A stretch of DNA of 64,000 nucleotides. It comes from Candidatus Bathyarchaeota archaeon. GTDB taxonomy: Archaea; Thermoproteota; Bathyarchaeia; TCS64. Of this stretch, positions 5,589 to 34,144 are shown in pieces. The first letter of the stretch is position 1. Every line of letters begins with the position of its first letter. Made by a program: the position numbers and the translations under genes. The stretch covers positions 288,001 through 352,000 of the forward strand of contig CAVYLP010000001.1 in NCBI GenBank assembly GCA_963769425.1. The letters are read 5' to 3'. Under the pieces are notes generated by a model. That model was not told the DNA's origin. It was given only the letters and a program-made list of their open reading frames with translations, and ran no database searches.

Positions 5589-6419
5589 CTACTTCTCGAA
5601 CTTGTCGCCGAGCTTCGTCTTCTTCCGAGTCTCACCCTTGCTGAAGTGGGCGAGGCGGGCCGCCGAGTCGTTCGCCTTCTCCATCTCTCTAGCCTCGTCT
5701 GCGGTCTTCGCTGCCTGTCTGAGAAGCTCGTGGGCGGCGGCGAGGATTGGTAGGTACCTCTCCGGTTCCTCGACTTTAAATGTGCCCTCTGTGCTGAGGT
5801 TGGCTACGCGGCGGGCGGCTTCGAATGCGGCCATCGCCTTACCCTGGGCGTAGGGGTTCGTGATCTGCGCCGCGGCCAATGCGTTCTCCTTCTCCACCAC
5901 AACCTGTGGCAGGGTCGGCTTCTCACCTTTACCGATCTGCTCGATCACCTTGTCGATCTCCTGCTGCACAATCCTGAAGCTGCCCGTGACGGCGAGGACC
6001 CTTATTGCATCCGAGTTGAAGAGAGCCATCTCGACTGGGTCAAGGAAGCTCTGCTTCGCCCCGATCATCGGGTCGTTCATGACAACGATGTACCCGACTC
6101 CCTCGACTGGGTTCTCTTTCAATGTCTTCCTGCTCGGTTCATCGGAGACCACTATGATGGGCTTACCCGTTGCGCGGAGTGCCTCTCTGGCCTTCGTAGG
6201 CCCCGGCATCGCGGCATTCGGGGAGACCACAATGTAGAGGTCCGAGGGTATGTCCGCGGCTATCCTGGCGACGTCGACGGCCGCCTCCTCCTCCATGCTC
6301 ACGCTGGATGAGACGACCCTCATCTGCAGGTCCTTGCGCCCCGATCTCTCATCTAGGAGGGCGTCAATCAGAGTGGTTGTGGCTATATACCCGATCTTGA
6401 CGAAGGTGACCTTTACCAA
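5589..6419 (-). CDS. mtd: F420-dependent methylene-H4MPT dehydrogenase (divergent)
   Basis: LLDER, SPNAAMPGP, DPMIGA, FLDPVEMALFN, NPYA, ADEAREMEKAND. Confidence 0.85.
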   Translation of the reverse strand: MVKVTFVKIGYIATTTLIDALLDERSGRKDLQMRVVSSSVSMEEEAAVDVARIAADIPSDLYIVVSPNAAMPGPTKAREALRATGKPIIVVSDEPSRKTLKENPVEGVGYIVVMNDPMIGAKQSFLDPVEMALFNSDAIRVLAVTGSFRIVQQEIDKVIEQIGKGEKPTLPQVVVEKENALAAAQITNPYAQGKAMAAFEAARRVANLSTEGTFKVEEPERYLPILAAAHELLRQAAKTADEAREMEKANDSAARLAHFSKGETRKKTKLGDKFEK

Positions 6420-6481
6420 GGCAAATCACGGCTCTGGTATGGTTTTCATTCGACGGGGTAATAAGATTTTCAAGGAGGGGG

Positions 6482-8353
6482 CTAGTCGATTCCGCCCACG
6501 CCGATGCCCTTCTCCTCCTTGAACTGCATCCGGTAGAAGGCGGAGTAGATGCCACCCTTCTCCATCAGCTCGAAGTGCGTCCCCTTCTCCACGATCCTTC
6601 CCTGATCTAGTACGATTATCTCGTCGCAGAGCCTAATCGTCGAGAGCCTGTGTGCGATTATTATCACCCTCCTGTTCGCTAAGAGCTTCTTCAGGGCGTT
6701 CTGGATGACCAACTCGGTATAGGGGTCGATGCTTGACGTTGCCTCGTCGAGGATGAGTATCTCCGGGTCGGTGAGGATCGCTCTCGCGAAGCTGATGAGT
6801 TGTCTCTGACCGATTGAGATGTTCGAGCTACCCTCCTGGATTATGTAGTTGTATCCCCCGGGGAGGTTCATGATGAACTCGTGGGCGCCCACCATCGTCG
6901 CGGCCTCGATGACCTCCTCGTCGGTGGCCCCGGGCTTCCCGAACCTGATGTTGTCCCTTATGCACATCGGGAAGAGGTAAGAGTCCTGAAGGACGATGCT
7001 CTGGTGGCTGCGAAGGTCTGCGATCTTGACATTTCTGATGTCCTCCCCATTGAGCTCTATCTTTCCGCTTAGGGGGTCGTAGAACCGCGAGATCAGGTTG
7101 ATTATAGTGCTCTTCCCCGCCCCCGTCGGCCCCACTATGGCAAGTTTCATGGTCTTCGAGTTTATCTCGAAGTTTACGTCGTGTATCACCGGAATAGCCG
7201 GGTCGTAACCGAAGGTCACGTCCTTGGCGCTGAGCTCCTCGGCCCTCCCCAACTTGACGACCTTCTCCTCGGGGGGGTCTTCGACCTCGGGCTCTGTGTC
7301 TATGAGGTCGAACATCCTCTCGGTGGCAGCCATCGCCTGCTGGTACTGATCGTACGCCTGCACGAGGGCGAGTATTGGGTTGAAGAATAGGAGCTGGTAG
7401 CTGGTGAAGGCTATGAATGTGCCTAGGGTTATGTCCCCGCTCATCGCCATGTTGGCGCCGAACCAGATTACCAAGGCGGTGCCCGCGACCCTTATCGTGT
7501 AGGCGACTGGCTGGTACGCCGCGGAGACCACCACCGCCCTGATCCTCTGTTTAACCACCTTGTCCTGCTCCTCGTTGAAGGTCTTGTGGGACCTGTCGAG
7601 CTGGACAAAGGCCTTTATAACCTTCATCCCGCTGAGGCTCTCCTGCATCGTCGAGATCATACCCGAGGTGTGGAGGAACGCTGCCCTGTTGTACTTGCGT
7701 GAGAGTATGCCGAGGTAGTAGGTCGCAAACGCGGCGATTGGCATAACGGCGATGGAGAGCAGGGCGAGCCGGACGTTGAGGAAGAAGATGATTATGAAGC
7801 CACCGATAAGAGATGCCGTATTCAGGACTATGCTCGTGAAGCCGGTCCGGAAGAACATCCTGAGGGCGTTGGCGTCGTTTATCGGGCGGGCTATTATCCT
7901 CCCCGTCTCACCCTCAGAGAAGTACCTGAGGGATATGATCTGCAACTTCGCCACGATGTCCTCCCTTATCCTCGCGACCGTGTTCTCGCCGAGGATCCTG
8001 ACCTGCCACGTCTGGACGTACTGCGCAATGAAGTAGGCCGCCGTGATGGCCATGAAGATGGGCACCCACCAGACGAAGCCGCCCATGTCCCGCGGGGTTA
8101 TGATGTCGTCGATGACGAGTTTGCCCATGTAGGGTACGAGGACAGTGGTTATTGAGTTGACGATGAGGGCGATGGTGGCGTAGATGAAGTTCTTCTTGTA
8201 GGCAACGGCGTACTTGAGAAGCCTTCTTAGCAGCTCCCTGTCTGTGTAGGTCCTCTCCTTCTGCGCCTCTCCGAGTGTGGAGAAGACGCCATAGCCGCCT
8301 CCCCCACCACCTCCACCGCCGCCTCCGCCCCCGCCGGGTGTGCTTATCGCCAT
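6482..8353 (-). CDS. ABC exporter TMD-NBD subunit (consensus Walker B/H-switch), heterodimer partner
   Basis: TM domain, GPTGAGKST, ISIGQRQ, ILDEATS, IAHR; poly-Gly N-terminus. Confidence 0.92.
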   Translation of the reverse strand: MAISTPGGGGGGGGGGGGGGYGVFSTLGEAQKERTYTDRELLRRLLKYAVAYKKNFIYATIALIVNSITTVLVPYMGKLVIDDIITPRDMGGFVWWVPIFMAITAAYFIAQYVQTWQVRILGENTVARIREDIVAKLQIISLRYFSEGETGRIIARPINDANALRMFFRTGFTSIVLNTASLIGGFIIIFFLNVRLALLSIAVMPIAAFATYYLGILSRKYNRAAFLHTSGMISTMQESLSGMKVIKAFVQLDRSHKTFNEEQDKVVKQRIRAVVVSAAYQPVAYTIRVAGTALVIWFGANMAMSGDITLGTFIAFTSYQLLFFNPILALVQAYDQYQQAMAATERMFDLIDTEPEVEDPPEEKVVKLGRAEELSAKDVTFGYDPAIPVIHDVNFEINSKTMKLAIVGPTGAGKSTIINLISRFYDPLSGKIELNGEDIRNVKIADLRSHQSIVLQDSYLFPMCIRDNIRFGKPGATDEEVIEAATMVGAHEFIMNLPGGYNYIIQEGSSNISIGQRQLISFARAILTDPEILILDEATSSIDPYTELVIQNALKKLLANRRVIIIAHRLSTIRLCDEIIVLDQGRIVEKGTHFELMEKGGIYSAFYRMQFKEEKGIGVGGID

Positions 8354-10186
8354 CTATGCCACTCCCCCGCCGAGTATCTCCTCGGTGGATTTCTCTAGGA
8401 ACTGGGTCTCGTAGACGCGCTTGTATATGCCATTCTCCGCCATGAGCTCGGCGTGTCTCCCGAACTCGGCGACGCGCCCCTTCTCGAGGACGAGTATCTT
8501 GTCGGCGTTCTTGATAGTGGAGAGGCGCTGCGCGATGATGAACGTGGTTCTTCCCCTCATCGCGTCCTCGAGTGCCTCCTGTATCTCCTGCTCAGTCTTC
8601 GCGTCAACGAAGCTGAGTGAGTCGTCGAGGATGAGTATCTTCGGGTTCGTTAGGATGGCCCTCGCGATGGTTATCCTCTGCTTCTGCCCACCGGAGAGGG
8701 TGACTCCCCTCTCCCCGACGTAACTGTTGTACTTATCCGGCAGGGAGTCGATGAAGTCGTGTATCCTGGCGAGCTTGGCGGCGTTGATGATCTCCTCATC
8801 CGTCGCCTCGGGCTTACCGAAAGCTATGTTGCTTTTTATCGTGCCAGAGAAGAGGAAAACATCCTGAAGGACTATGCCCACCTGCCGCTGCAGAGAGTCG
8901 ATCTTGCAGTCTCTGATGTCTACGCCGTCGATCTTTATGCTGCCGGCGTGGGGGTCGTAGAACCTCGGGATGAGGTAGATTAGCGACGTCTTTCCCGAGC
9001 CTGTTGCGCCCAGTATGGCTATCTTCTCCCCCGCATGGGCTTTGAAGCTGATATCGGACAGTATGTCCAAGTCCTTCGTGTAGCCGAAGCTGACGTTTTG
9101 GAACTCGACCTCACCATGTGGTATCTGTATATCCTTGGCGTTGGGGCCCTCTTTGACGTCGATCGGTGTGTTTCTTACCTCATTTATTCGTTCGAGGCTA
9201 GCGGAGGAGTTTATCCAGCTACCTACGATGTTAGCGAGCTGGTTGAGCTGGGGGACGATCCTCTGCATGTACGTCGCGAATAGGAGCAGGTTCCCAACTA
9301 TGAGGACGGGGTTTGGTCCCAAGAGGAGGCTCGTCCCGTATATATATACGAAGGCTACGCCGATCTGCAGGATCGTTTGGGGGGAGGGGATGTAGAGGGC
9401 CTGGATTTTGCCCGCGGAGATGGCTGTGGCGACGTACTTTGACTCTACCTCCTCGAAGCCGTCCTTCATCCCCTCCTCCATCTCGAAGATACGCACATTC
9501 TTCATGCCTATGATGTTCTGCTGGACGTAGGCGCCGAGCTTGCCGAGGATGAGCATCATCTTCCGGAATAGGGGACGCACCTTGGTGAACTGCCTGATCT
9601 GGATGTATGCGACCAGGGGCATCGGCGCGAACGTGAGCAGGGTCAGTAACGGGTTGATCGGGAACATGATCAAAATACAGGCGACGACGACGAAGAGGGA
9701 GTCGAATATGTTCATCAGCCAGTTCGCGCAGAAGTTGTTCACCGCCTGAAGGTCCATCGTCGCCCTCGAGATGAGGTCACCGACCGAGTTGGAGTCGAAG
9801 AAGCCGAAGGACTTTTCCTCGAGGGAGCGGTAGTAGTCGGATCTTATGTCTCTGATTATCAGTTCTGCCACGTAGCCGTTCGTGAAGGTCTCGAAGAAGG
9901 TGAACATTCCCACTCCGAGGACGGCGAGTATCGTGCTAAGCACGAGCCCGGGAAGCAGGGCGGTCTGTCCACCGAGGACTACCAAGTTGATTATCTGGGC
10001 GAGGTAGAGTGGCTCCAAGGCGAAGAGGGCCGCCCTCGCCGCGCTGAAGATCACCGTAAGGATGGAGTAGGGGAGGTAGGGCCTGTGGTACCTCAGAATC
10101 ATCCTGAACTCCTTCCCCGAGCCCCTGATGTCGGTGCGGGGCTTCATCGCGTCTATCCAATCGAGAACCGGTTTGGCTACACTCAT
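8354..10186 (-). CDS. ABC exporter TMD-NBD subunit (degenerate Walker B/H-switch)
   Basis: GATGSGKT, LSGGQ, ILDDSLS (E to D), IIAQR (H to Q): TM287/TM288-type heterodimer. Confidence 0.92.
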   Translation of the reverse strand: MSVAKPVLDWIDAMKPRTDIRGSGKEFRMILRYHRPYLPYSILTVIFSAARAALFALEPLYLAQIINLVVLGGQTALLPGLVLSTILAVLGVGMFTFFETFTNGYVAELIIRDIRSDYYRSLEEKSFGFFDSNSVGDLISRATMDLQAVNNFCANWLMNIFDSLFVVVACILIMFPINPLLTLLTFAPMPLVAYIQIRQFTKVRPLFRKMMLILGKLGAYVQQNIIGMKNVRIFEMEEGMKDGFEEVESKYVATAISAGKIQALYIPSPQTILQIGVAFVYIYGTSLLLGPNPVLIVGNLLLFATYMQRIVPQLNQLANIVGSWINSSASLERINEVRNTPIDVKEGPNAKDIQIPHGEVEFQNVSFGYTKDLDILSDISFKAHAGEKIAILGATGSGKTSLIYLIPRFYDPHAGSIKIDGVDIRDCKIDSLQRQVGIVLQDVFLFSGTIKSNIAFGKPEATDEEIINAAKLARIHDFIDSLPDKYNSYVGERGVTLSGGQKQRITIARAILTNPKILILDDSLSFVDAKTEQEIQEALEDAMRGRTTFIIAQRLSTIKNADKILVLEKGRVAEFGRHAELMAENGIYKRVYETQFLEKSTEEILGGGVA

Positions 10187-10337
10187 TCATACCGCCAGAG
10201 CGATTACATTCCACTCGGATCGTCGAGCCAGCGCTTAATAGTTACTACTCGACTTAGTGGCTAGAGTCCCCGGATAAGTACTTAGCAATTTTTTCGTTGA
10301 CAAGTTATTAAAACAGATACGGGAAACTATTGTACGA

Positions 10338-12020
10338 ATGCCTATGGCTCTACCGACGAAGATCGAGATCGCCCAGAGCGCCAAGCTCAAGCCGATAACC
10401 GAGATCGCAGCGGGTCTCGGGCTCAGCCCCGATGACATCGAGATGTATGGGAAGTACAAGGCGAAGATACGCCCCGAGGTCTACACAAGGAATAAGGACA
10501 AGCCCGACGGGAAACTGATAATAGTCACCGCAATCACCCCGACGAAGTTCGGGGAGGGTAAGACGACTATGAGCATCGGCCTCGCCGAGGCGTTGGGGAA
10601 GCTGGGGAAGAGGAACATCGTCGTCCTCCGCCAGCCGAGCCTCGGCCCCGTCTTCGGCGTCAAGGGCGGCGCCTGCGGGGCCGGCTACGCCCAAGTCCTC
10701 CCCATGGAGGACATAAACGTCCACTTCACCGGCGATCTACACGCCATCACCTGCGCCCACGACCTCCTCACCAGCATCATGGAGAACCACATAAACCGCG
10801 GCAACGAGCTGGGCATAAGCCTCCACGACATCATGTGGAAGCGCGTAATCGACATAGAGAGCAGGACCCTCCGCAAGATGGTCATAGGCCTCGGCGGCAA
10901 GAACAATGGCATCCCCTACGAGAGCGGCTTCGAGATCACCACCGCATCCGAGATCGCCGCAATACACGCCATAAGCAGCGACTTCATGGATCTCAAGAAG
11001 CGCATGGCAGCGATCACCGTCGCATACGATAAGGATGGGAAACCGGTTACGGCAGGTCAGCTTCAGGTCGTCGGCGCCATGGCTATCCTGATGAAGGACG
11101 CGGTTAAGCCCAACCTCATCCAGACGATCGAGGGGACACCCGGCATCATCCACGGCGGCCCATTCGCGAACATCGCGCACGGCTGCCCGAGCCTCATCGC
11201 CATAAAGACCGCGCAGAAGCTCACCGACTACGTCGTCCTCGAGCCCGGCTTCGGCGCCGACCTCGGCATGGAGAAGTTCTGCAACATCGCAAGCCGCGCA
11301 GGCGGGCTGAAGCCCAGCGTCGCCGTCATCGTCGCCACGATTAAGGCGCTGAAGAGGCACGGAGGCACCAAGTACAGGGACATCGACAAGCCCAGTGCCG
11401 ACGCCGTCAGGAAGGGGTTGCCAATCCTCGCCAAGGAGGTGGAGAACGCCAAGAAGTTCGGCCTCCACCCCGTCGTCTGCATGAACCACTTCCTCAACGA
11501 CGCCCAGGAGGAGATCGATATAGTCATGAACTGGGCCAAGGAGAACGGGGTCCCCGCGGCCTTCACGGACACCGTCCTCAAGGGCGGCGCGGGTGGCACC
11601 GAGCTAGCGAACCTCGTCCTCAAGGAGCTGGAGAAGCCGAACAACTTCCACTTCCTCTACCCACTCGAGATGCCCGTCGAGGAGAAGATCAGGACCATCG
11701 CCAAGGAGATCTACGGCGTGGCCGACATACGCCTCACGGACGACGCGAGGAAGGCGCTGAAGCAGATCGAGAAATTCGGCTTCGACAAGCTCCCAATCTG
11801 CATGGCGAAGACGCCGCTCAGCCTCACGGACAACGAGGATCTGCAGGGTCTGCCACCCACCGGCTACATACTGCCCATAGTCAACCTCAAGCCGAGCACA
11901 GGCGCTGGCTTCATCGTCGCCTACTGCGGCGACATAAGCACGATGCCCGGGGAGCCGACACACCCAGCCAGTGAAGAGATGGACATCGACGAGAACGGCA
12001 TCATAAAGGGGTTGGCGTAG
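10338..12020 (+). CDS. fhs: Formate--tetrahydrofolate ligase
   Basis: TAITPTKFGEGKTT, GVKGGACGAGYAQV, HFTGD, HGGPFANIAHG, GFGADLGMEKF, ICMAKT. Confidence 0.96.
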   Translation: MPMALPTKIEIAQSAKLKPITEIAAGLGLSPDDIEMYGKYKAKIRPEVYTRNKDKPDGKLIIVTAITPTKFGEGKTTMSIGLAEALGKLGKRNIVVLRQPSLGPVFGVKGGACGAGYAQVLPMEDINVHFTGDLHAITCAHDLLTSIMENHINRGNELGISLHDIMWKRVIDIESRTLRKMVIGLGGKNNGIPYESGFEITTASEIAAIHAISSDFMDLKKRMAAITVAYDKDGKPVTAGQLQVVGAMAILMKDAVKPNLIQTIEGTPGIIHGGPFANIAHGCPSLIAIKTAQKLTDYVVLEPGFGADLGMEKFCNIASRAGGLKPSVAVIVATIKALKRHGGTKYRDIDKPSADAVRKGLPILAKEVENAKKFGLHPVVCMNHFLNDAQEEIDIVMNWAKENGVPAAFTDTVLKGGAGGTELANLVLKELEKPNNFHFLYPLEMPVEEKIRTIAKEIYGVADIRLTDDARKALKQIEKFGFDKLPICMAKTPLSLTDNEDLQGLPPTGYILPIVNLKPSTGAGFIVAYCGDISTMPGEPTHPASEEMDIDENGIIKGLA

Positions 12021-12021
12021 A

Positions 12022-12858
12022 ATGGCGATAATCCTCGACGGCAAGGAGACATCAGCCAAGATCGTTGAGGAGATCAAGGCGGAGATCGCCGCCCTGAAGG
12101 CTAAAGGTGTCAACCCGACGCTTGCACTCATACTGATCGGGGGAGACCCCGGCTCGGTCCGATATGTCAACATCAAGGTCAAGCGCGCCGAGGAGGCCGG
12201 CATAGCCACACAGTTCCACCACCTGGAGACCGCCACGACGGAGCAAGTCGTCACGCTCATCAAGAAGCTGAACACGGACCCCAAGGTCCACGGTATAATG
12301 GTCCAGCTCCCCGCGCCCAAGGAGGTGAACGAGGGCACCATAGTCGAGGCGATCGCCCCGGAGAAGGATGTCGACGCCCTCAGCCCCGTCACCTTCGGCA
12401 AGATAGTCCTCGGAGAGAAGAGCTTCCTCCCCGCCGGCGTCGAGGCCATCATGGAGCTACTCAAACGCTACAATGTCGACCCCGAGGGCAAGCACTGGGT
12501 AGTCGCCGGCTTACCGAGCTGGCTTGGTAAACCCATGGCAGCGATGCTCCTCAACAAGAGGGTAGAGGTCACCGCCTTCGCCGCAGGGGACCCACGGCTA
12601 CCCGAGTTCGTGAAACAGGCGGACGTCCTCTGCATCGAGATACACAGGAAGTGGACCGTCACCGCAGACATGGTGAAGAAGGGAGTCGTCGTCATCGACA
12701 ACGGCAACAGCTACGAGGGCAAGAAGGTCTTCGGGGACGTCGACTACGAGCGCGTCGCGCCACTAGCATCAGCGATCACCCCCGTCCCCGGTGGCGTCGG
12801 GCCCCTCCTCATCACGATGCTCCTGCGGAACACGGTAATGGCGGCTTCAACTGCCTAG
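12022..12858 (+). CDS. folD: FolD family methylene-THF dehydrogenase/cyclohydrolase (NADP motif degenerate)
   Basis: ILDGK, YVNIK, GIMVQLP, EKDVD, GDVD, ITPVPGGVGP. Confidence 0.9.
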   Translation: MAIILDGKETSAKIVEEIKAEIAALKAKGVNPTLALILIGGDPGSVRYVNIKVKRAEEAGIATQFHHLETATTEQVVTLIKKLNTDPKVHGIMVQLPAPKEVNEGTIVEAIAPEKDVDALSPVTFGKIVLGEKSFLPAGVEAIMELLKRYNVDPEGKHWVVAGLPSWLGKPMAAMLLNKRVEVTAFAAGDPRLPEFVKQADVLCIEIHRKWTVTADMVKKGVVVIDNGNSYEGKKVFGDVDYERVAPLASAITPVPGGVGPLLITMLLRNTVMAASTA

Positions 12859-16398: not shown

Positions 16399-17322
16399 TT
16401 GATCAGGTTCGGGGTTAAGACGTCCCAAGCTAGGGACTATGGCGACTACGCTGCGTTGAGGAGGGTCTGGCTGGAGGCGGAGAGGCTCGGCTTCCACTCA
16501 GGGTGGCTCTTCGACCACTTGTTCGAGCTACCAGGTGCGGGGCCCAGCCTAGAGCCCTGCTTGGAATGTTGGACCTCTCTATCGGCACTAGCCGCGGAGA
16601 CTAAGAAGCTGAGACTTGGAGTGACGGTACTGTGTGCAACCTACCGGAACCCAGCTCTTCTAGCAAAGATGGCCTCGACCCTTGATGTGATTAGCAACGG
16701 CAGACTCGAATTCGGAATCGGTGCTGGGTGGGCGGGGGTTGAGCATGAGGCTTACGGCTTCCCCTTCGACAAGCCCGCCATTAGGATCGGGAGACTCAGG
16801 GAGTCTGTAAAGATAATCAGGAGTATGTGGACAGAGGAGAAGACGAGCTTCCACGGCAAGTACTACGACATCGAGGGCGCTGTAAACAACCCGAAGCCGA
16901 TCCAGAAGCCTCACCCGCCGATCTGGATTGGAGGCGGAGGGGAGGGATTAACCCTGAAGGCCATCGCGGAGCTCGCGGATGGGTGTAACTTCATTGGTCT
17001 CTCCACATCGGAGTATAGCCACAAGTTGGATGTCCTGGGGGAACACTGCGCTAAGATTGGTAGAAACGTTAACGACATCCAGAAGTCGTGGCAGGGTAGA
17101 ATCCTAATCGCGAAGGATGAGGACGAGTTAAAGAAGATGAAGGTCAAAATGGGGGAGGTCGACGAGGAACACAATGTAGTCGGCACCCCGGATCGCTGCG
17201 TCGAGAAGCTACGAGAGTACACGGACCTCGGCGTCTCCTGCTTCATGCTCGTCTTCCCCGGGGCGACACGGGACCCCAGACCGCTCCAACTATTCAGTGA
17301 GAGTGTAATGCCCGAGTTCTAG
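16399..17322 (+). CDS. LLM-class F420-dependent oxidoreductase
   Basis: AERLGFHSGWLFDH, YRNPALLAK, SNGRLEFGIGAGW, PKPIQKPHPPIWIGG. Confidence 0.9.
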   Translation: MIRFGVKTSQARDYGDYAALRRVWLEAERLGFHSGWLFDHLFELPGAGPSLEPCLECWTSLSALAAETKKLRLGVTVLCATYRNPALLAKMASTLDVISNGRLEFGIGAGWAGVEHEAYGFPFDKPAIRIGRLRESVKIIRSMWTEEKTSFHGKYYDIEGAVNNPKPIQKPHPPIWIGGGGEGLTLKAIAELADGCNFIGLSTSEYSHKLDVLGEHCAKIGRNVNDIQKSWQGRILIAKDEDELKKMKVKMGEVDEEHNVVGTPDRCVEKLREYTDLGVSCFMLVFPGATRDPRPLQLFSESVMPEF

Positions 17323-18377: not shown

Positions 18378-19364
18378 TTATTGGTTGAAGGATGAGGTCC
18401 AGGGAAGGATTATCTTCCCTGTCTCATCCATCTCATCCCAATACTTCCACTGGTTGTCGACAGAGAGTTGCAGATACTCTAGGGCAGCCTCGTTCTCCCA
18501 GAGATGCGCGAACCTCCCCTGCTTCGTAACGTATTCTCGTATCTTCTTCCGGGGATTCGGCTTCGTAGTGAGGTGGAAGTGGCCGTTTTCGTACTCCCAT
18601 AAGACCCACATTCCGGTGTTTACTGCGGTTCGCCCTATCTCCACAGTCTCCTCCGGTGGGAACGCCCAGCCCTTGGGGCAGGGTGTAAGAAGCTGTACCA
18701 GTGAAGGTCTACCGCTATTAAGGGCTTTACGGACCTTGTTAACAAGGTCCACAGGGTAGGAGATGCAGGCGGTGGCGACGTAACCTATGGAGGGGTGAAC
18801 AGCAGCGATTAATGCCATGTCCTTCTTCAGCCTCTCGTTGCCTATGGGCTTCACCTTCCCTGACGGGGTGAACGTCGTTGAGGAGCCGAAGGGCGTTGTG
18901 CTAGAAGCCTGGACGCCTGTATTTGCGTAAGACTCGTTGTCGTATAGGAGGTAGAGCAGGCGGGAGTAGTCGTAGGTCAGACCCATTGACAAACCGCTCA
19001 GCCCTATATCTGAGAATCCCCCATCTCCACCGTAGACAATGACGTTTACGTCCTCCTTCTTCCGCTTACCCTTGAACATCAGCGACCGGAGCGCCGCGGC
19101 GGTGCCTATTCCAGCCGGTCCTCCTGCCCCGAGTTGGGTGTGGTACCATGGGACCGCGTATGGTGAGGATAGGAACTGGTGGCCGTTGGCGACGTACATG
19201 CAGCCGGTTGGACCGAGCACTACGGTCTTCGGGCCGGCGGCTTTGAGCACGAGCCGGTATCCGAGGGCGGGGCCACAGCCTGCACATGTCCGGTGCCCGG
19301 AGACGTAGTAGTCCTCCGGTGGTATTTCGGTTGGTTTTTGGATCAGTTTAGTTTCGCGGCTCAT
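18378..19364 (-). CDS. 2-oxoacid (oxalate-type) oxidoreductase beta subunit, TPP-binding
   Basis: GHRTCAGCGP, GPTGCMYVAN, GDGG...YDNESYANTG, PCPKGW. Confidence 0.9.
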   Translation of the reverse strand: MSRETKLIQKPTEIPPEDYYVSGHRTCAGCGPALGYRLVLKAAGPKTVVLGPTGCMYVANGHQFLSSPYAVPWYHTQLGAGGPAGIGTAAALRSLMFKGKRKKEDVNVIVYGGDGGFSDIGLSGLSMGLTYDYSRLLYLLYDNESYANTGVQASSTTPFGSSTTFTPSGKVKPIGNERLKKDMALIAAVHPSIGYVATACISYPVDLVNKVRKALNSGRPSLVQLLTPCPKGWAFPPEETVEIGRTAVNTGMWVLWEYENGHFHLTTKPNPRKKIREYVTKQGRFAHLWENEAALEYLQLSVDNQWKYWDEMDETGKIILPWTSSFNQ

Positions 19365-20602
19365 TGATCTTCACCTCTCACGGTAACCCACCTGACGGGT
19401 TTGTCCACCTTACCCTTCTTCACTGATTCGATGAGCTGCTTCGTGGAGTTCTCGAGCTCCGTTAGCGTCATCTCTCTTCCACCAGCGAAAATGTAGTCCA
19501 TTATTATCGGCCTGTTTTTGGAGTCGTAAAGCGCCGCCTTGACCTCGTTGTATAATACGCTACCGTTCCAGGGAGAGCCGAGGCTGAATGAGAAGTCGAT
19601 CACGCCTACTCCCCTCACGTCCTCGAGGATGTTTTTCAGCTCCTCTGTTGGGAAGGGTCGGAGATATTTTAGCCTCAGGGAACCAACTTTGATTCCCTTC
19701 TCGCGTAGTTTCTCGACTATGTAGTCTGCGTTACGTGAGTATGCACCCATCGACAGTAGGACGTAGTCAGCGTCTTCCATCTTCATTGACTCGAACCATG
19801 GATCGACCTCCTTGCCGGTTATGTCGCCCCAGCTCTTCCAAGCCTCGGGGATGACGACGTTCTTAGCTCTCTTAATTGCGGCGTCGAGAGACTTCCTCTG
19901 CTCTGGCCCTATTAGTGAGGGGGCTATGTGCATGGCCTTGCTGACGGTGTCGTAGCTGGGGTCTAGTGGGTGTGGTTGCTTGTATGGGGGTAAGAAGCGG
20001 TCCACGAGATCCTTCTTTGGGGGAAGGACGGGTGACGCGACGTGTGTGATGGTGGCGCCGTCTAGGGCAACGAAGTGTGGGAGTAGTACCCGCTCATCTT
20101 CCGCGATCTTGTAGGCGACGAGGGTCATCTCCAGTGCTTCCTGCGGGTCTTTAGACCAATTCATTAGCCAGCCAACGTCCCTGAACAGGAAGGCATCATT
20201 CCACTCCATGCCAAAGTTTCCGGGATCGTCGAGTGATCTGCACCCAACGACGCCGACGACGGGTAGCTGGCCGAGGGCGGTCGTTATGACGGCTTCAGTT
20301 CCGTATATTAGCCCGGTTCCGGAGCTTCCGACGAATGTCCTCGCACCAACGGCGGAGGCGTGCTTTACAACCTCGAATTGACTGTGCTCTGAGTCGCATA
20401 TGAGGTACTCGGCGTAGAAGTCTCCACCCGCTATCATTGTTGCTAGTGAGTTCATTATGCCCGTGTAGGGTCGAATCGGGTAGGCGGCGATGACGTCCAC
20501 GTCGGCTAGTTTCACGGCCTCGGCTACGGCTCTCGCCCCTGTCCATACCCGCCTCTTCTGAACGCTCTTTTGCACTGATACTTGCGAAGTTTTACTCATC
20601 AT
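19361..20602 (-). CDS. 2-oxoacid (oxalate-type) oxidoreductase alpha subunit
   Basis: AYPIRPYTGIM, DSEHS, RSLDDPGNFG, RPFPTE; start ATG 20602. Confidence 0.9.
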   Translation of the reverse strand: MMSKTSQVSVQKSVQKRRVWTGARAVAEAVKLADVDVIAAYPIRPYTGIMNSLATMIAGGDFYAEYLICDSEHSQFEVVKHASAVGARTFVGSSGTGLIYGTEAVITTALGQLPVVGVVGCRSLDDPGNFGMEWNDAFLFRDVGWLMNWSKDPQEALEMTLVAYKIAEDERVLLPHFVALDGATITHVASPVLPPKKDLVDRFLPPYKQPHPLDPSYDTVSKAMHIAPSLIGPEQRKSLDAAIKRAKNVVIPEAWKSWGDITGKEVDPWFESMKMEDADYVLLSMGAYSRNADYIVEKLREKGIKVGSLRLKYLRPFPTEELKNILEDVRGVGVIDFSFSLGSPWNGSVLYNEVKAALYDSKNRPIIMDYIFAGGREMTLTELENSTKQLIESVKKGKVDKPVRWVTVRGEDQ

Positions 20603-20609
20603 CAGCACC

Positions 20610-21734
20610 TCAGTACGCGTACTCGATGAGCGCCTCGCGTATTGTGAGGAACTCCTCCTCATCGAGGCCCTCTAGGGCGGCGAGTTCATGTGGCATCGAT
20701 ATCGCCTTTGGCCCGCAGACCTTTGCACATATGCCGCACCCCTTGCAGTAGTCGTAGTCTACCTTGATAGTGTCGAAATCGATGGCTCCATCGGGGCAGA
20801 AGATGTGGCAGAGTTTGCAGTCCACACATTTGCTCTTGTCGATGACGGGTCGGAATGTTCTAGCGAAGCTCGTCTTGAAGCCGAAGTTCCTCTCACCCAC
20901 ATTAGGGCCGAACTCGATGAGGGCCGGCGCGATCTGTTCCCAAGTCGGCATCGCCTTCATTCTCTCCTCGTAGGTTGGGGCTTCGGCTACGGCTCGCTTG
21001 ATCTTGAGGTAGGACTCCTTGTCCCAAGGACCGGGCTTAGCTCCCCCTACTTTGGCACCTTCGCCGAGGTGCGATACTTTACTATACTGCTCGCACTCGG
21101 AAGCCTTGAGCGAGACATCAATCGACTCGGCTTCGTCGTATGCTCTCCTCACGGCGTCAACGGCTTCCCTCTGGTCCTCAGAAGATTCGAGGGAGTCGAT
21201 GACGTGTTCTAGTGTGACCAAGGGTTCCATCGACTTGGCGATGGCACCTATCATTCCGTATGCTATATTCTTGTCATACTTTTTTGCGCGCAGAGTGAAT
21301 ATTTTTCCATCCCAATCGTGGGCGCAGCCATACTTTTTGACCAGTCTGAGGATTACATCGGGTTTGAGCGACGTGTTGACCACGAGCGAGGCGTTCCTCT
21401 TCGCCCCGTCGAGAAGCAGCGCCCTCTGCGAGGTCGACTTAACGAGGAGGGACGAGTCGAGGACGGCAATCGTGTCGAATACGCTGCCGATGGGCTCAAC
21501 CTCCTCTGGCAGTATCATTTTGATCTTTGGGTTACCGAAGACGGCATAGTAGATGAAGGGCAGCTGAACCCTCTCAGGGCTGTCGTCGTATCTCATGTAG
21601 TAGAAGGCTTCTCTCCCCGCGGCTACGCCCGCCTGTGAAAGCGTCAGCGCTATCTGGGAAGAGTGAGCCGTGTTTATTACCCCCCGTCCGTGGATGGCCA
21701 GCCACGTCAGGCTCTCAAGCTCGGGTGAAGACAT
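20610..21734 (-). CDS. 2-oxoacid oxidoreductase gamma-delta fusion with 2x[4Fe-4S]
   Basis: IHGRG, YDDSPER, CVDCKLCHIFCPD, CKGCGICAKVC. Confidence 0.88.
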   Translation of the reverse strand: MSSPELESLTWLAIHGRGVINTAHSSQIALTLSQAGVAAGREAFYYMRYDDSPERVQLPFIYYAVFGNPKIKMILPEEVEPIGSVFDTIAVLDSSLLVKSTSQRALLLDGAKRNASLVVNTSLKPDVILRLVKKYGCAHDWDGKIFTLRAKKYDKNIAYGMIGAIAKSMEPLVTLEHVIDSLESSEDQREAVDAVRRAYDEAESIDVSLKASECEQYSKVSHLGEGAKVGGAKPGPWDKESYLKIKRAVAEAPTYEERMKAMPTWEQIAPALIEFGPNVGERNFGFKTSFARTFRPVIDKSKCVDCKLCHIFCPDGAIDFDTIKVDYDYCKGCGICAKVCGPKAISMPHELAALEGLDEEEFLTIREALIEYAY

Positions 21735-31693: not shown

Positions 31694-31779
31694 GCAGAGG
31701 TGCCAGAGCGGTTATTGGGCTAGTCTCGAAAACTAGTGGCCTTTGAGCCTCAAGGGTTCGAATCCCTTCCTCTGCGCCA
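31694..31779 (+). tRNA. tRNA-Ser(CGA)
   Basis: GCAGAGG/CCTCTGC acceptor stem, CTAGT-CT CGA AA-ACTAG anticodon arm, long variable arm, GGTTCGAATCC, encoded CCA. Confidence 0.93.
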
Positions 31780-31799
31780 CAGTCCCTTCCTTTAGGTAT

Positions 31800-32678
31800 G
31801 ATGATTTGTTGAATATCTAAAGGAAAAGAGACTCGAAGAATCAACAATTGAAGCAAAGATTAAACTCGTCAAGCATCTAGCATCCAAATTCAATCTCTGG
31901 GATTCTGATTCAATCAGAAAATACATCTACGAATGCGAAGTGGGGTGGACGTAGGAAGAATAACGCGGGATACGCCTATCAGGATTGGTGCAAGTGGAAG
32001 GGTTTCGAGTTTAAGTTTGAGAATTTCAGAGAAGAAACACAGGCTCTACCATACATTCCACTAGAGAAGGAAATTCGATCAATTAATAGCGGGATTTGGT
32101 CCGACCTATTCCTGTTTACTTCAATTGATCAAGGAGTCGGGTTTCAGATTAGCTGAGACTTTGACACTTAACACGTATCTGATATTGATTTTGAACGAAA
32201 TGTAATTACTCTCAATTCACCTGCAAAGCATAGCAATCCTAGACAGTTCAGAATGTCATCAATGCTTAACGCAATGTGTTAAGGAGAACGATAGCAAGAA
32301 AGGAGTTCAAGGAACGGATCTGGGATGCTAAGCCTAACTCCATCCGTTACACATTCATTGGTTAAACGTAGATACTTAGCTATTAAACTCGGAAATCCTT
32401 GACTCTTGAAGTATCTCAATCAAGACCTTTAGACATTGGAAGGCAACTATGGAATATCACAGAACTAAGGACATTCTTTATACGTTAAGGAAATGCTTGG
32501 ACACAAATTCAATCAAGAATACCCTAATTTATACGCATCTTGTGGGACTTCGGAAGAAGAAAATTCATACACCATTAAAGTAGCCTCAACCATCGACGAA
32601 TTCACCCCGCTTCTCGAATCAGGCTTCGAGTACGTGTCCGACTTCGAGGGGAAGAAGGTGCGGAGGAAGAGGAAGTAG
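31800..32678 (+). pseudogene. Tyrosine recombinase/integrase, multiply frameshifted
   Basis: Pieces LPYIPLEKEI, IKESGFR, IDFERN..TLNSPAK, KTFRHWKATMEYHRTKDILY, MLGHK, TLIYTHL, LLESGFEYV lie in different frames. Confidence 0.88.
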
Positions 32679-32715
32679 GTCTTCAGGTCTTGAAACAACG
32701 ACAGAGTATCGACTA

Positions 32716-32764
32716 GATCTCCAAACCATTTTTGGGTTCAACTTTTACAAGTTTTATAAAATTT
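32716..32764 (+). repeat. Left imperfect inverted repeat of the AT-rich cassette (partner 38703-38754)
   Basis: TTTTACAAGTTTTA at 32743-32756 is the reverse complement of 38710-38723; GATCTCC also shared. Confidence 0.6.
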
Positions 32765-32866
32765 ACAATTTTTAATTTGGTTTTACGGAATAAATAGTTT
32801 ATAATATTTTTTAGAAGAAACCAATTTGAAATTAATTTATAGTCGATTAAGAGTAGTCTTCAATTA

Positions 32867-34144
32867 ATGGTTGAAATCATTCGGGAATCCAGTAATTTAG
32901 AACCACTTCTAAAAGGTTTCATTGACGCTACAAATACTAAATATTTTGGCAATTCCTTGAACATCCTCTTCTTAAATGGTTCCATATTAGAAGTCTTTGA
33001 AAATAGTGGGATATGCTGCTTAATCAGCATGAGCGGAGCAGATAATAAAATTGAAGAAAGCATTGATTTGATCGAGGGTAAGTCGAAAACTGACGTAGTT
33101 CCATTTATTAAAGAAATTAGTAAAGTAATTCTTCCTCGCATAATCTTGGCCTACAAGCAAAGTGTCAGTTCTGTGGATAAGAATCAAGATGAATTACATA
33201 TTACGGCAGGTATTGTTGCATCGTTTATGACTACTATGCCGGAATTAGAGGCAAAGATAAAAGAAATGACGGGATTTTTCATTAATGGAGCCTTTCTGTT
33301 CTCAGATCTATTCGTAGTAGAAGCTTACAAAGGGTTTTCAGAAATTAAGAAATCTCATCTTCGCTCTGGCATTAGTACGGGTGCCTACGAAGAAATGATT
33401 CACCAACTGTCAAAACTTGCGATAATCGAACCCAAAATCAGGATCAGTGTTTGCCCCTATTGCATGAATAATGAATTAGTAGTTTCTAAGTATCCACAAG
33501 TCAATGATACATGTCCAAAATGCGGAAATAAATGGTCGAATAGCGTGTTATATCTATTCAATGAACAATTTGGGAAAGTTAAGTCAATAAATGCGGATCT
33601 CCCCCTATTTATTTCAAGTTATTTAAAGCACCAAACTGCAATACAATCTTTAGGCGAAGAATTAACTATATTTCCTAATGCTGTCATTAAACTTGAAGGA
33701 AAAAATGTAGAAGTTGATGTATATATTCCAAGATATAATATCGGTATAGAGTGTAAAAATTATTTATCCACTTCTATACCCGACACGCCAACACGGGCTA
33801 AAAGTATCGCTGGAGAGTTAAAACAACAAATACTAAATTATAAAGAAGTTGGGATAGAAAATATTTACATAATAGCCAATCTCTCAACGAAAACTCTTGA
33901 GAGAGTTAATGTTGAATTAATTGATTCATTTAAGAAAAAGAAACTAATTATGCCTAAAGTGACAATTATTCAAGGAGATCCAAACTCGGTGATAAAACTT
34001 CTAAATGAACTGAGTGCCTCAATTAGTATGGATTTTAAAAAGAATTTCGAGACGATGTTTCAAAATATCCCTGTCTTAGATACTACAGACAATATGAATA
34101 AAAAGGAAAAATCAAAGACCGAACAATCTAAAAAAATAGATTAA
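32867..34144 (+). CDS. Putative PD-(D/E)xK nuclease with Zn finger
   Basis: CPYC-x14-CPKC; EVDVY-x7-IECKN nuclease-like motif; AT-rich. Confidence 0.65.
   Translation: MVEIIRESSNLEPLLKGFIDATNTKYFGNSLNILFLNGSILEVFENSGICCLISMSGADNKIEESIDLIEGKSKTDVVPFIKEISKVILPRIILAYKQSVSSVDKNQDELHITAGIVASFMTTMPELEAKIKEMTGFFINGAFLFSDLFVVEAYKGFSEIKKSHLRSGISTGAYEEMIHQLSKLAIIEPKIRISVCPYCMNNELVVSKYPQVNDTCPKCGNKWSNSVLYLFNEQFGKVKSINADLPLFISSYLKHQTAIQSLGEELTIFPNAVIKLEGKNVEVDVYIPRYNIGIECKNYLSTSIPDTPTRAKSIAGELKQQILNYKEVGIENIYIIANLSTKTLERVNVELIDSFKKKKLIMPKVTIIQGDPNSVIKLLNELSASISMDFKKNFETMFQNIPVLDTTDNMNKKEKSKTEQSKKID

What the first reader, a model, noticed from the sequence alone, without database searches (positions are those of the whole stretch)
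5589..12858. Possible hybrid C1 route: Fhs + NADP-degenerate FolD + divergent F420-dependent Mtd
FolD keeps the cyclohydrolase YxxxK motif and QLP/KDVD, but the usual NADP-site motifs are altered (GRSxxVG to GLPSWLG, PCTP to PAGV, VIDVG to VIDNG). The nearby Mtd differs from methanogen Mtd at positions I recall as conserved (GNI/L to GYI, DERADR to DERSGR, GARREF to GAKQSF, EGCF to EGTF). Inference: FolD may act only as a cyclohydrolase, with this Mtd supplying an F420-linked dehydrogenase step on tetrahydrofolate or a modified pterin, bridging folate and methanopterin chemistry.
Basis: partly seen in the sequence, partly recalled or inferred. Interest (0 to 1): 0.7.

Follow-up and report, generated by a model that had tools for sequence, protein, structure and literature searches.

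The report
Folate pathway borrowing an F420 dehydrogenase
An uncultured Bathyarchaeia archaeon seems to run its folate one-carbon pathway with a FolD enzyme that has lost its NAD(P) pocket and a neighbouring F420-dependent dehydrogenase taken from the methanogen-type pathway, which would be a new pairing of cofactors if enzyme assays confirm it.

Summary
FolD keeps 7 of 7 substrate and catalytic residues. It keeps only 1 of the 13 residues that bind NADP in human FolD. All 18 related FolD copies show the same changes.

The linkage is conserved. Of 26 related Mtd loci, 18 have Fhs(-FolD) beside Mtd, 6 are cut by a contig end and 2 are rearranged. All 21 Fhs/FolD-linked Mtds fall in one clade. 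That clade includes a GlyA-GcvT-Mtd-Fhs-FolD operon in another Bathyarchaeia family and one Hadarchaeia locus. The 32 canonical FolDs sampled in these two classes are never next to Mtd.

This genome makes F420 (CofD) and has two FolC genes. It has no Mch, Ftr, Mer, CdhC, RFAP synthase or second FolD. Its canonical Mtd and Mch were lost from a locus that is otherwise syntenic with a relative.

Best reading (about 0.55): FolD acts only as a cyclohydrolase, and this Mtd clade does the F420-linked methylene/methenyl step on folate. Caveats: relatives that keep Mch and Mer have this Mtd as their only Mtd, so it may accept both pterins, and there is no biochemistry.

The parts
5589..6419 (-). Mtd* is an F420-dependent methylene-tetrahydropterin dehydrogenase of the Fhs/FolD-linked clade (276 aa, TTG start).
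   Evidence: PF01993 scores 335.1 bits and NF002162 scores 334.3 against 297. The best solved match is 1qv9_A at 241.9 bits. It is the only Mtd in the genome. It lies in a clade of 29 sequences with SH-aLRT 96. dN/dS is 0.04-0.07 against relatives that lack Mch.
6482..8353 (-). ABC exporter half-transporter (transmembrane plus nucleotide-binding domains, 623 aa). It is a lineage-specific insertion between Mtd* and Fhs and is probably not part of the C1 module.
   Evidence: It matches PF00664 and PF00005. Among the related loci it is found only in the window and in L016.
8354..10186 (-). Second ABC exporter half-transporter (610 aa), inserted together with the first.
   Evidence: It matches PF00664 and PF00005. 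It is found only in the window and in L016.
10187..10337 (.). Divergent intergenic region between the minus-strand genes (ABC-ABC-Mtd*) and the plus-strand genes (Fhs-FolD*). In most relatives Mtd* and Fhs face each other directly across about 70-80 nt.
   Evidence: Spacings in L015, L018-L024 and L026 come from the tblastn ends. No promoter was tested.
10338..12020 (+). Fhs, formate-tetrahydrofolate ligase (560 aa).
   Evidence: PF01268 scores 771.9 bits. NF010030 scores 774.1 against a cut-off of 652.
12022..12858 (+). FolD* has the FolD fold with the cyclohydrolase and substrate residues intact and the NAD(P) site degenerate (278 aa). It starts 1 nt after the Fhs stop codon.
   Evidence: It matches PF00763 and PF02882 but no NCBIfam FolD cut-off is met. 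The AF2 model has pLDDT 97.7 and TM 0.94-0.97 to solved FolDs. It keeps 7 of 7 catalytic residues and 1 of 13 NADP-site residues. It is the only FolD in the genome.

Best explanation
Fhs, FolD* and Mtd* form one folate-type C1 module that links formate and methylene-tetrahydrofolate. Fhs makes or uses 10-formyl-H4F with ATP. FolD* has lost its nicotinamide cofactor site and acts only as the methenyl-H4F cyclohydrolase. The redox step between methenyl-H4F and methylene-H4F is done by Mtd*, a dedicated clade of the F420-dependent Mtd family, using F420/F420H2.

Methylene-H4F then connects to GlyA, the glycine cleavage system and a MetF-like enzyme encoded elsewhere in the genome. The module could run reductively, from formate to glycine and serine. 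It could also run oxidatively, from glycine or serine to formate plus ATP and F420H2.

In relatives that still have the H4MPT enzymes, Mtd* probably also accepts methylene-H4MPT.

What is shown: gene identities, motif states, linkage, phyletic patterns and purifying selection. What is inferred: the loss of FolD* dehydrogenase activity, the pterin and cofactor used by Mtd*, and the direction of flux.
For: 1. FolD* site states. The 13 NADP-site residues and 7 substrate/catalytic residues of human FolD are listed in PMC3368264 (passages read). In the window they map to G139, L164, P165, W167, A187, A188, E206, I207, R209, T212, N227, G228 and N229, so only G237 is kept. All 7 catalytic residues are kept.

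2. This is not a simple NADP-to-NAD switch. Among canonical representatives, 22 lack R/K at position 173. All 22 still keep T148, A/G215 and G217, and 20 of 22 keep S174. The FolD*-like set (n=26) has E or D at A215 in 24, N at I238 in 22 and T148 in 1.

3. The fold is intact, with pLDDT 97.7 and TM 0.94-0.97 to solved FolDs.

4. Linkage. Of 26 Mtd* loci, 18 have Fhs within about 2 kb of the Mtd start and 17 of those also show FolD*. Six are cut by a contig end on that side. Two (L014, L017) have at least 8 kb of flank and lack them. All 18 FolDs aligned from these loci share the degenerate motifs.

5. Other gene orders.
- L096 and L097 (family f23) carry GlyA-GcvT-Mtd-Fhs-FolD* on one strand.
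- L038 (Hadarchaeia) carries 5-formyl-THF cyclo-ligase, FocA, Mtd, FolD*-Fhs, GcvT and GcvP.

6. Trees. All 21 linked Mtds lie in one clade of 29 (SH-aLRT 96). That clade is sister to the canonical Mtds of the same genomes. The canonical copy in G012 sits with an FrhB-like gene, Acd, Mch, MoeA and MobA.

7. Controls. All 16 FolDs sampled from other Bathyarchaeia families are canonical, as are all 16 from other Hadarchaeia. Where the same genome also has Mtd, the two genes are not adjacent: 10 of 10 in Bathyarchaeia and 13 of 13 in Hadarchaeia. Of 80 metagenome FolD loci, 0 hold an Mtd.

8. Class sample of 301 genomes. FolD at 51% identity or more occurs only in f1 (67/70) and f4 (5/6), and the next best is 42%. 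Mtd at 57% or more occurs only in the same two families.

9. This genome (91.26% complete, 6 contigs).
- Present: one FolD, one Mtd, CofD (338.2 against 257.45), two FolC (364.4 and 358.8 against 162.65), GlyA, GcvT, GcvP, FocA and a MetF-like gene.
- Not found: Mch, Ftr, McrA, CdhC, true Mer (111.4 against 348.7), RFAP synthase (33.6 against 113.5) and Pterin_bind.
-.

10. The losses are real. The G012 order 2-hydroxyacid dehydrogenase-FGGY-aldolase-FrhB-like-[Mtd]-Acd-DRTGG-Mch-MoeA-MobA is kept in G000 contig C3. In G000, however, FrhB-like and Acd are about 200 nt apart, and no syntenic copy of DRTGG, Mch, MoeA or MobA follows Acd on C3.

11. Mtd* is under purifying selection among Mch-less genomes, with dN/dS 0.038-0.071.
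Against: - No enzyme activity, cofactor binding or pterin identity was measured.
- In genus g5, at least 9 genomes with Mch and a Mer over the cut-off have Mtd* as their only Mtd match. Mtd* therefore probably still turns over methylene-H4MPT, or these organisms share one pterin between both enzyme sets.
- G003 (94% complete) keeps an intact Mtd* under purifying selection, but no Fhs or FolD* was found there. Mtd* can be useful without FolD*.
- The FolD*-linked Mtds of L038 and L096 keep R123, E124 and C213.
- The genome has no DHPS-like gene. Folate would have to be salvaged, and folate use is inferred from FolC alone.
- The replaced FolD* positions are themselves conserved (E/D206, N227, N229). 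This could mean a new ligand rather than an empty site.
- The deep FolD* clade has only moderate support (SH-aLRT 91). With the motif columns removed the label needs 7 changes instead of 4.
- Both clades are monophyletic, so the association may rest on one or a few evolutionary events.
- Only 1 of 65 Hadarchaeia genomes has the cluster, which fits horizontal transfer rather than independent origin.
Confidence: 0.55

Rival explanations
1. The module works as proposed (Fhs, a cyclohydrolase-only FolD*, and F420-dependent Mtd*), but on an H4MPT-type or otherwise modified archaeal pterin rather than on tetrahydrofolate. It would be an ATP-dependent formate entry into the methanopterin-type pool.
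For: Most family f1 genomes keep Mch (53/70). In genus g5, Mtd* is the only Mtd alongside Mch and Mer. The Mtd family is known only with H4MPT, according to the reviews PMC8498797 and PMC8518648 (passages read). G000 has no DHPS-like gene for making folate itself. Cross-use of pterin-specific enzyme families has been proposed before, for MetF in ANME-1 (PMC9012536, passages read).
Against: G000 has no RFAP synthase over the cut-off (33.6 against 113.5). In its genus, that gene and the adjacent DHPS-like gene occur only in genomes that also have Mch. G000 has two FolC genes well over the cut-off. Among the 14 control genomes this family matches only the bacteria and Haloferax, not the two methanogens. 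Fhs passes its equivalog cut-off. The linked genes in L096 and L038 belong to folate-type families: GlyA, GcvT, GcvP and 5-formyl-THF cyclo-ligase.
Confidence: 0.15
2. FolD* is still a bifunctional dehydrogenase/cyclohydrolase that uses NAD or another hydride carrier in a remodelled pocket. Mtd* would then be a parallel or unrelated enzyme that merely shares a regulatory region with Fhs-FolD*.
For: Loss of R173, H196 and S197 with an acidic residue a few positions after strand beta-2 (D190 in the window) is the usual signature of an NADP-to-NAD change (the rule itself is recalled knowledge). The substituted residues are conserved within the clade, as expected for a working site. The Rossmann-type domain is fully retained.
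Against: Changes also hit residues that contact the parts shared by NAD and NADP: T148, S174, I176, A215, C236 and I238. The 22 canonical FolDs without R173 keep these residues. If FolD* were self-sufficient there would be no reason for an Mtd clade to stay linked through three different gene orders. Nor would Mtd* be kept under purifying selection in genomes without any H4MPT enzyme.
Confidence: 0.12
3. Mtd* is an ordinary H4MPT-specific Mtd. Its position next to Fhs-FolD* is inherited synteny without functional meaning. In genomes such as this one it is a leftover of a decaying H4MPT pathway.
For: Mtd* passes the NCBIfam equivalog cut-off for F420-dependent methylene-H4MPT dehydrogenase and keeps 30 invariant family columns. 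Flanking genes that are functionally unrelated (PUA, NAC, MBL-fold) are syntenic too. Kin are not independent samples.
Against: dN/dS is 0.04-0.07 among Mch-less genomes, which is not decay. The canonical Mtd was deleted from its own locus while Mtd* was kept. Linkage persists in different gene orders and in two classes, at Mtd identities down to about 50%. The partner FolD is degenerate exactly where Mtd is adjacent and canonical everywhere else sampled.
Confidence: 0.08

Closest known systems
FolD, the bifunctional NAD(P)-dependent methylene-H4F dehydrogenase / methenyl-H4F cyclohydrolase (for example PDB 3P2O, 4B4U, 1A4I)
   Same: It has the same two-domain fold (TM 0.94-0.97, rmsd 1.3-1.9 A). 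The best hit, 3P2O, is 44% identical. All seven substrate and catalytic residues are kept (Y52, K56, Q100, L101, D125, G273, G276 in human numbering). It sits in the same operon position, directly after Fhs.
   Different: Twelve of the 13 NADP-site residues are replaced. No NCBIfam FolD cut-off is reached. It forms its own cluster in the FolD tree. It is always next to an Mtd, which canonical FolDs are not.
Mtd, the F420-dependent methylene-H4MPT dehydrogenase of methanogens and Archaeoglobus (PDB 1QV9, 3IQE)
   Same: It matches PF01993 over its full length and passes the equivalog cut-off. It aligns to 1QV9 over residues 2-270. It keeps 30 invariant columns. F420 biosynthesis is present in the genome.
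   Different: It belongs to a separate clade (SH-aLRT 96) with its own signature: K177 in 29 of 29, and no P274 where 64 of 65 others have it. Within families f1 and f4 it also has A26S, R123Q/S, E124A/S and C213V/T. Its genomic partners are Fhs, FolD*, GlyA and GcvT instead of Mch, Ftr and Mer. In this genome no H4MPT pathway or RFAP synthase was found.
MtdA + Fch + FtfL of Methylobacterium, a split dehydrogenase, cyclohydrolase and formate-H4F ligase, with MtdA acting on both H4F and H4MPT (recalled knowledge; no call)
   Same: The logic is the same. The dehydrogenase and the cyclohydrolase are separate proteins working with Fhs, and the dehydrogenase may serve two pterins.
   Different: The protein families and the cofactor differ. 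MtdA uses NADP and Fch is not of the FolD fold. Here the dehydrogenase is a PF01993 enzyme that would use F420, and the cyclohydrolase is a FolD derivative.
MetF proposed to stand in for Mer in ANME-1 (PMC9012536, passages read)
   Same: An enzyme family of one pterin world is recruited into the pathway of the other.
   Different: The direction is opposite (a folate-type enzyme in an H4MPT pathway), the step is different, and the partner enzyme does not degenerate.

Membership tests
FolD (bifunctional methylene-H4F dehydrogenase/cyclohydrolase) | Both Pfam domains (PF00763 catalytic and PF02882 NAD(P)-binding) over their cut-offs | tested here: met
   PF00763 scores 127.3 against 32.8, and PF02882 scores 148.1 against 27.
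FolD (bifunctional methylene-H4F dehydrogenase/cyclohydrolase) | NCBIfam FolD equivalog or subfamily cut-off reached | tested here: not met
   The best is NF010787 at 270.6 against 423. None of the 25 models shown reaches its cut-off.
FolD (bifunctional methylene-H4F dehydrogenase/cyclohydrolase) | Substrate and catalytic residues Y52, K56, Q100, L101, D125, G273, G276 (human numbering, PMC3368264) | tested here: met
   Y48, K52, Q95, L96, D118, G257 and G260 are all present.
FolD (bifunctional methylene-H4F dehydrogenase/cyclohydrolase) | NAD(P)-binding residues T148, R173, S174, I176, H196, S197, A215, T216, Q218, M221, C236, G237, I238 | tested here: not met
   Only G237 (G228 in the window) is kept. 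The mapping uses motif position and exact spacing in the alignment to canonical FolDs; the human chain itself was not aligned on screen.
FolD (bifunctional methylene-H4F dehydrogenase/cyclohydrolase) | NAD(P)-dependent dehydrogenase activity | not testable with these tools
   This needs an enzyme assay.
[quoted passage not shown] | Full-length family match over the curated cut-offs | tested here: met
   PF01993 scores 335.1 against 25. NF002162 scores 334.3 against 297.
[quoted passage not shown] | Residues invariant in other Mtds (A26, R123, E124, C213) | tested here: not met
   The window has S26, Q123, S124 and T213. Among 52 other Mtds the counts are A 52, R 49, E 51 and C 52. Their roles in the solved structure could not be checked because the paper is not held.
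[quoted passage not shown] | Works within an H4MPT pathway (Ftr, Mch and Mer in the genome; H4MPT biosynthesis) | tested here: not met
   No Mch, Ftr, true Mer or RFAP synthase was found in a genome that is 91.26% complete in 6 contigs. The syntenic locus shows that Mtd and Mch were lost.
[quoted passage not shown] | F420 available in the cell | tested here: met
   CofD scores 338.2 against 257.45. An FrhB-like gene is present.
Fhs (formate-tetrahydrofolate ligase) | Full-length equivalog match | tested here: met
   NF010030 scores 774.1 against 652, and PF01268 scores 771.9.

The most novel reading that the evidence does not exclude
An abundant order-level lineage of Bathyarchaeia, plus scattered other archaea, uses a chimeric methyl branch. 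It combines bacterial-type Fhs, a FolD that evolved into a pure cyclohydrolase, and an Mtd clade that evolved into the first F420-dependent methylene-tetrahydrofolate dehydrogenase. This would tie folate C1 metabolism (formate, glycine, serine) directly to the F420 pool and so to F420H2-oxidising energy conservation.
Probability: 0.5. Interest if true: 0.8.

Novelty: new variant of a known kind. Interest (0 to 1): 0.72.

Why it matters
Textbook C1 biochemistry keeps two systems apart. One is tetrahydrofolate with NAD(P), found in bacteria, eukaryotes and some archaea. The other is tetrahydromethanopterin with F420, found in methanogens and their kin. An F420-dependent step on folate would be a new enzyme specificity and a new junction between the two.

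It would also change how Bathyarchaeia genomes are read. Published reconstructions list Mtd under the H4MPT pathway and FolD as an NADP enzyme (PMC10321748), or lump them as 'Mtd/FolD' (PMC11697101). If the module works as proposed, H4MPT Wood-Ljungdahl completeness and NADPH budgets for this lineage are being mis-scored. A formate/glycine route linked to F420 has also been overlooked.

The claim is directly testable with two small soluble proteins.

Tried and rejected
- **Single-sequence AlphaFold2 of FolD\*.** The model was unusable (pLDDT 37.3). It was replaced by the alignment-based model.
- **Complex prediction of Mtd\* with FolD\*.** The verdict was 'no answer' (score 0.00). It is not used as evidence either way.
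- **The look-up of sequencing runs.** No RNA holder was listed and DNA shares were at most 0.14. No reads were laid, and no statement on expression or habitat is made.
- **Metagenome scan with a FolD\*-like alignment.** The pattern chosen by the tool is shared with canonical FolDs. Of the 80 loci, 76 were canonical FolDs, and 4 FolD sequences were mis-extracted by my script (L137, L174, L176, L186). The scan served only as a weak control, with 0 of 80 loci holding Mtd. The contexts of the other FolD\*-like representatives (P0122, P0129, P0130, P0136, P0142, P0156, P0171, P0225, P0238) remain unknown.
- **FolD tree under the PMSF mixture model.** It did not finish in two calls. The LG+G4 quick tree was used instead. 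The AU test of one FolD\* clade did not finish.
- **Roles of the changed Mtd residues in the solved ternary complex.** These could not be checked. The structural paper is not held, and the two reviews read give no residues.
- **Literature searches.**
  - Four spellings of 'F420-dependent methylene-H4F dehydrogenase' matched 0 papers.
  - Gene-name and pathway term combinations were searched.
  - None of the listed papers I opened describes the pairing: PMC10321748 section 9, and passages of PMC11697101, PMC11264602, PMC9012536 and PMC13156950.
  - Subscription journals are mostly not covered. Supplementary tables (for example tables S7/S8 of PMC10321748) were closed and may hold gene-distribution data that bear on this.
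- **Considered and dropped.**
  - The two ABC exporters as folate transporters: they are exporter-type and occur only in the window and L016.
  - The luciferase-like gene at 16399-17322 as Mer: it scores 79.4 bits against 348.7.

Full report
**What is there.** The region holds five genes.
- Mtd at 5589-6419 (-).
- Two ABC exporter genes at 6482-8353 and 8354-10186 (-).
- Fhs at 10338-12020 (+).
- FolD at 12022-12858 (+), starting one base after the Fhs stop codon.

Pfam and NCBIfam confirm the identities. Mtd scores 335.1 bits and passes the equivalog cut-off (334.3 against 297). Fhs scores 771.9 bits and also passes (774.1 against 652). FolD hits both FolD domains but reaches none of the 25 NCBIfam FolD cut-offs shown (best 270.6 against 423).

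The window is G000:C1:288001-352000. The genome has 2.55 Mb in 6 contigs and is 91.26% complete. The closest Mtd relatives (86-92% identity) are in records titled Bathyarchaeia or Bathyarchaeota.

FolD was aligned to solved FolDs and to 150 representatives of 50%-identity clusters.
- GRSNIVGKP reads GLPSWLGKP.
- PCTP reads PAGV.
- VIDVG reads VIDNG.
- VTxCHSxT reads VTAFAAGD.
- The AxG strand end reads EIH.
- YxxxK, QLP, KDVD and PGGVGP are kept.

A structural paper (PMC3368264, passages read) lists 13 residues that form the NADP site of human FolD. R173, H196 and S197 hold the 2'-phosphate. The paper also lists 7 substrate and catalytic residues. By motif position and exact spacing, the window keeps 7 of 7 catalytic residues and only G237 of the 13. 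In 103 canonical representatives these positions are well conserved: T148 in 102, S174 in 98, A215 in 95, H196 in 86 and R173 in 79.

An alignment-based AlphaFold2 model is confident (pLDDT 97.7). It superposes on solved FolDs at TM 0.94-0.97. The fold is intact while the cofactor-contacting side chains are not.

A26, R123, E124 and C213 are invariant or nearly so in 52 other Mtds. N11 is less conserved, at 36 of 52.

**Not a simple NADP-to-NAD switch.** Twenty-two canonical representatives lack R/K at position 173. All 22 keep T148, A/G215 and G217, and 20 of 22 keep S174. The FolD*-like set (n=26) behaves differently: E or D replaces A215 in 24, N replaces I238 in 22, and T148 survives in 1. 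These residues touch the parts common to NAD and NADP. The replacement residues are themselves conserved, so a new ligand cannot be excluded.

**Linkage.** One search returned 80 Mtd loci. Of these, 26 carry the close Mtd type (58-92% identity).
- 18 have Fhs within about 2 kb upstream of Mtd, transcribed divergently. Of those, 17 also show FolD.
- 6 are cut by a contig end on that side.
- 2 (L014, L017) have at least 8 kb of flank and carry unrelated genes there.

In most loci Mtd and Fhs face each other across about 70-80 nt. The two ABC genes are inserted only in the window and in L016. In another subgroup of loci (L025-L036; the script looked at L027, L031 and L032 and found a 541-551-aa ORF), the Mtd-Fhs gap is about 1.8 kb. 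That ORF has a weak M20-peptidase match in L027 and no Pfam match in L031. All 18 FolDs aligned from these loci (window, 16 Bathyarchaeia loci and L038) share the degenerate motifs.

**Other gene orders and lineages.**
- In family f23 (L096 and L097) the order is GlyA-GcvT-Mtd-Fhs-FolD on one strand. The FolD reads SPAA, VGVNKLLGKP, LVVDVG and IIDCGNN at the same motif positions.
- In one Hadarchaeia genome (L038 = G301) the order is 5-formyl-THF cyclo-ligase, DUF2099, FocA, Mtd, then FolD-Fhs on the other strand, then GcvT and GcvP. Its FolD is again degenerate.

**Trees.**
- In a tree of 94 Mtds, all 21 Fhs/FolD-linked sequences fall in one clade of 29 (SH-aLRT 96). Of the other 8 members, 6 are on truncated contigs and the other 2 are L014 and L017.
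- The sister group holds the canonical second Mtds of the same Bathyarchaeia genomes.
- In G012 the canonical copy lies in FrhB-like / Mtd / Acd / DRTGG / Mch / MoeA / MobA.
- In a FolD tree, 30 of 33 degenerate sequences cluster together (SH-aLRT 91).
- With the motif columns removed the label needs 7 changes rather than 4 and is still far from random. The AU test did not finish.

**Controls.**
- In a class-wide sample of 301 Bathyarchaeia genomes, FolD at 51% identity or more occurs only in families f1 (67/70) and f4 (5/6), with a gap down to 42%. Mtd at 57% or more occurs only in the same two families.
- All 16 FolDs fetched from other Bathyarchaeia families are canonical. Where those genomes also have Mtd, it is on another contig in 10 of 10.
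- In 65 Hadarchaeia genomes, 34 have a FolD and 17 have an Mtd. All 16 other FolDs fetched are canonical. Among genomes with both genes, 13 of 13 are not adjacent. Only G301 has the degenerate FolD, and only there is Mtd adjacent.
- Of 80 metagenome FolD loci, nearly all canonical, none holds an Mtd. This is a weak control, because most are probably from organisms without Mtd.

**The genome around the window.**
- Present: one FolD and one Mtd; a MetF-like gene; CofD (338.2 against 257.45); an FrhB-like gene; GlyA, GcvT, GcvP and FocA.
- Also present: two FolC genes (364.4 and 358.8 against 162.65). Among the 14 control genomes this family matches the ten bacteria that use folate and Haloferax, not the two methanogens.
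- Not found: Mch, Ftr and McrA; true Mer (111.4 against 348.7); CdhC; RFAP synthase over its cut-off (33.6 against 113.5); any Pterin_bind/DHPS gene.

Within the genus, RFAP synthase and an adjacent DHPS-like gene occur in G002, G004, G005 and G012. They also occur in G013, which is in the same order. All five genomes also have Mch.

The absences are real losses. The G012 order 2-hydroxyacid dehydrogenase / FGGY kinase / aldolase / FrhB-like / Mtd / Acd / DRTGG / Mch / MoeA / MobA is kept on G000 contig C3. In G000, however, FrhB-like and Acd are about 200 nt apart, and no syntenic copy of DRTGG, Mch, MoeA or MobA follows Acd on C3.

Mtd* is nevertheless under strong purifying selection among Mch-less genomes, with dN/dS 0.038-0.071.

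**Reading.** The simplest account is a folate-type module: Fhs, then FolD* as cyclohydrolase only, then Mtd* as the F420-linked dehydrogenase. Methylene-H4F would feed or drain GlyA, the glycine cleavage system and MetF.

The redox argument rests on recalled standard potentials, not on any call: methenyl/methylene-H4F about -300 mV, F420 about -340 to -360 mV, and NADP -320 mV. These values make F420H2 a competent reductant of methenyl-H4F and leave the reverse reaction only mildly uphill. The direction of flux is not determined here.

**Results against the reading, or limiting it.**
1. Genus g5 has Mch in 27 of 32 genomes and a Mer over the cut-off in 12 of 32, yet only one Mtd match each, the Mtd* type. 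At least 9 genomes have all three. Mtd* therefore probably still serves H4MPT there and would be dual-specific, or one pterin is shared.
2. No genome of genus g1 has a true Mer (0 of 18 including G000).
3. G003 (94% complete) has Mtd* but no Fhs or FolD* was found.
4. G218 has Fhs-FolD* on another contig, and FolD there is read in two pieces.
5. G134, a one-contig genome, has Mch and Mer, no Mtd match and only an 89-residue FolD* remnant.
6. The Mtds linked to FolD* in L038 and L096 keep R123, E124 and C213. The signature shared by the whole clade is different: K177 in 29 of 29, and no P274 against 64 of 65 others.
7. Both clades are monophyletic. The number of independent evolutionary events behind the association is small, and the single Hadarchaeia case looks like a transfer.

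**Literature.**
- The reviews read say that Mtd is known only with H4MPT (PMC8498797 and PMC8518648, passages).
- Section 9 of PMC10321748 lists Mtd under the H4MPT pathway and FolD as the NADP enzyme in Bathyarchaeia. It notes a tetrahydrofolate methyl branch with a reductive glycine pathway in two orders.
- PMC11697101 labels one gene 'Mtd/FolD' in a figure legend.
- Four spellings of an F420-dependent methylene-H4F dehydrogenase matched no paper. Four further term searches found nothing that describes the pairing.
- The library lacks most subscription journals, and supplements were closed.

**Verdict.** It would be a new variant of known enzymes and pathways. It is of clear interest to C1 biochemistry and to the metabolic reading of Bathyarchaeia, and it can be tested directly with two recombinant proteins.

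Noticed in passing
window 31694-38411: A tRNA-Ser(CGA) at 31694-31779 is followed by a stretch of 28-35% G+C, against about 55% elsewhere. The stretch holds ORFs without Pfam matches and a 942-aa protein with an N6 DNA methylase domain (35583-38411, -). It looks like an integrated foreign element at a tRNA gene.
   Followed up: partly
G000:C3:203439-210025 compared with L098: There is a clean loss of the canonical Mtd between the FrhB-like gene and Acd, leaving an intergenic gap of about 200 nt. No syntenic copy of DRTGG, Mch, MoeA or MobA follows Acd on C3; only weak MoeA and MobA matches (about 30% identity) lie on C6. The same locus in congener G012 has all of them.
   Followed up: yes
window 16399-17322 (+): A luciferase-like oxidoreductase (PF00296, 191.6 bits) lies 3.5 kb downstream of FolD*. 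It is one of nine matches to the Mer model in the genome, and all are far below the Mer cut-off. Whether any of them reduces methylene-H4F with F420H2 was not examined.
   Followed up: no
L027:8283-9905, L031:8268-9920; G000:C1:394977-396548: A 541-551-aa ORF sits between Mtd* and Fhs in L027, L031 and L032. It has a weak M20-peptidase match in L027 (20.5 bits) and no Pfam match in L031. G000 has a 59% identical copy about 100 kb away on the same contig, plus many paralogues. M20 enzymes include folate and p-aminobenzoyl-glutamate hydrolases (recalled), so a link to folate salvage is possible but untested.
   Followed up: partly
L046, L059, L060, L071, L073, L080, L084, L090: Full-length Mtd homologues (41-45% identity) occur on contigs titled Gammaproteobacteria, Pseudomonadota, Planctomycetota and Acidobacteriota. 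Seven of them form a bacterial clade (SH-aLRT 99), and L059 groups elsewhere with L076. The review PMC8518648 says no bacterial Mtd has been characterised.
   Followed up: no
window 6482-8353 (-): The first ABC exporter begins with a run of 14 glycines after MAISTP.
   Followed up: no
G218:C2:13962-14787: In this congener FolD* is read in two frames: residues 1-45 lie in a 685-aa open frame that continues from Fhs, and residues 40-276 lie in another frame. This is either a frameshift or an assembly error. Fhs-FolD* there is also unlinked from Mtd*.
   Followed up: no
G000:C2:50602-51712: GcvT matches the genome in two overlapping pieces (query residues 3-266 and 255-374). This may be a frameshift or only split alignments.
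   Followed up: no
window 18378-21734 (-): Three genes of a 2-oxoacid:ferredoxin oxidoreductase are present: the TPP-binding, POR_N/PFOR_II and ferredoxin-domain subunits.
   Followed up: no
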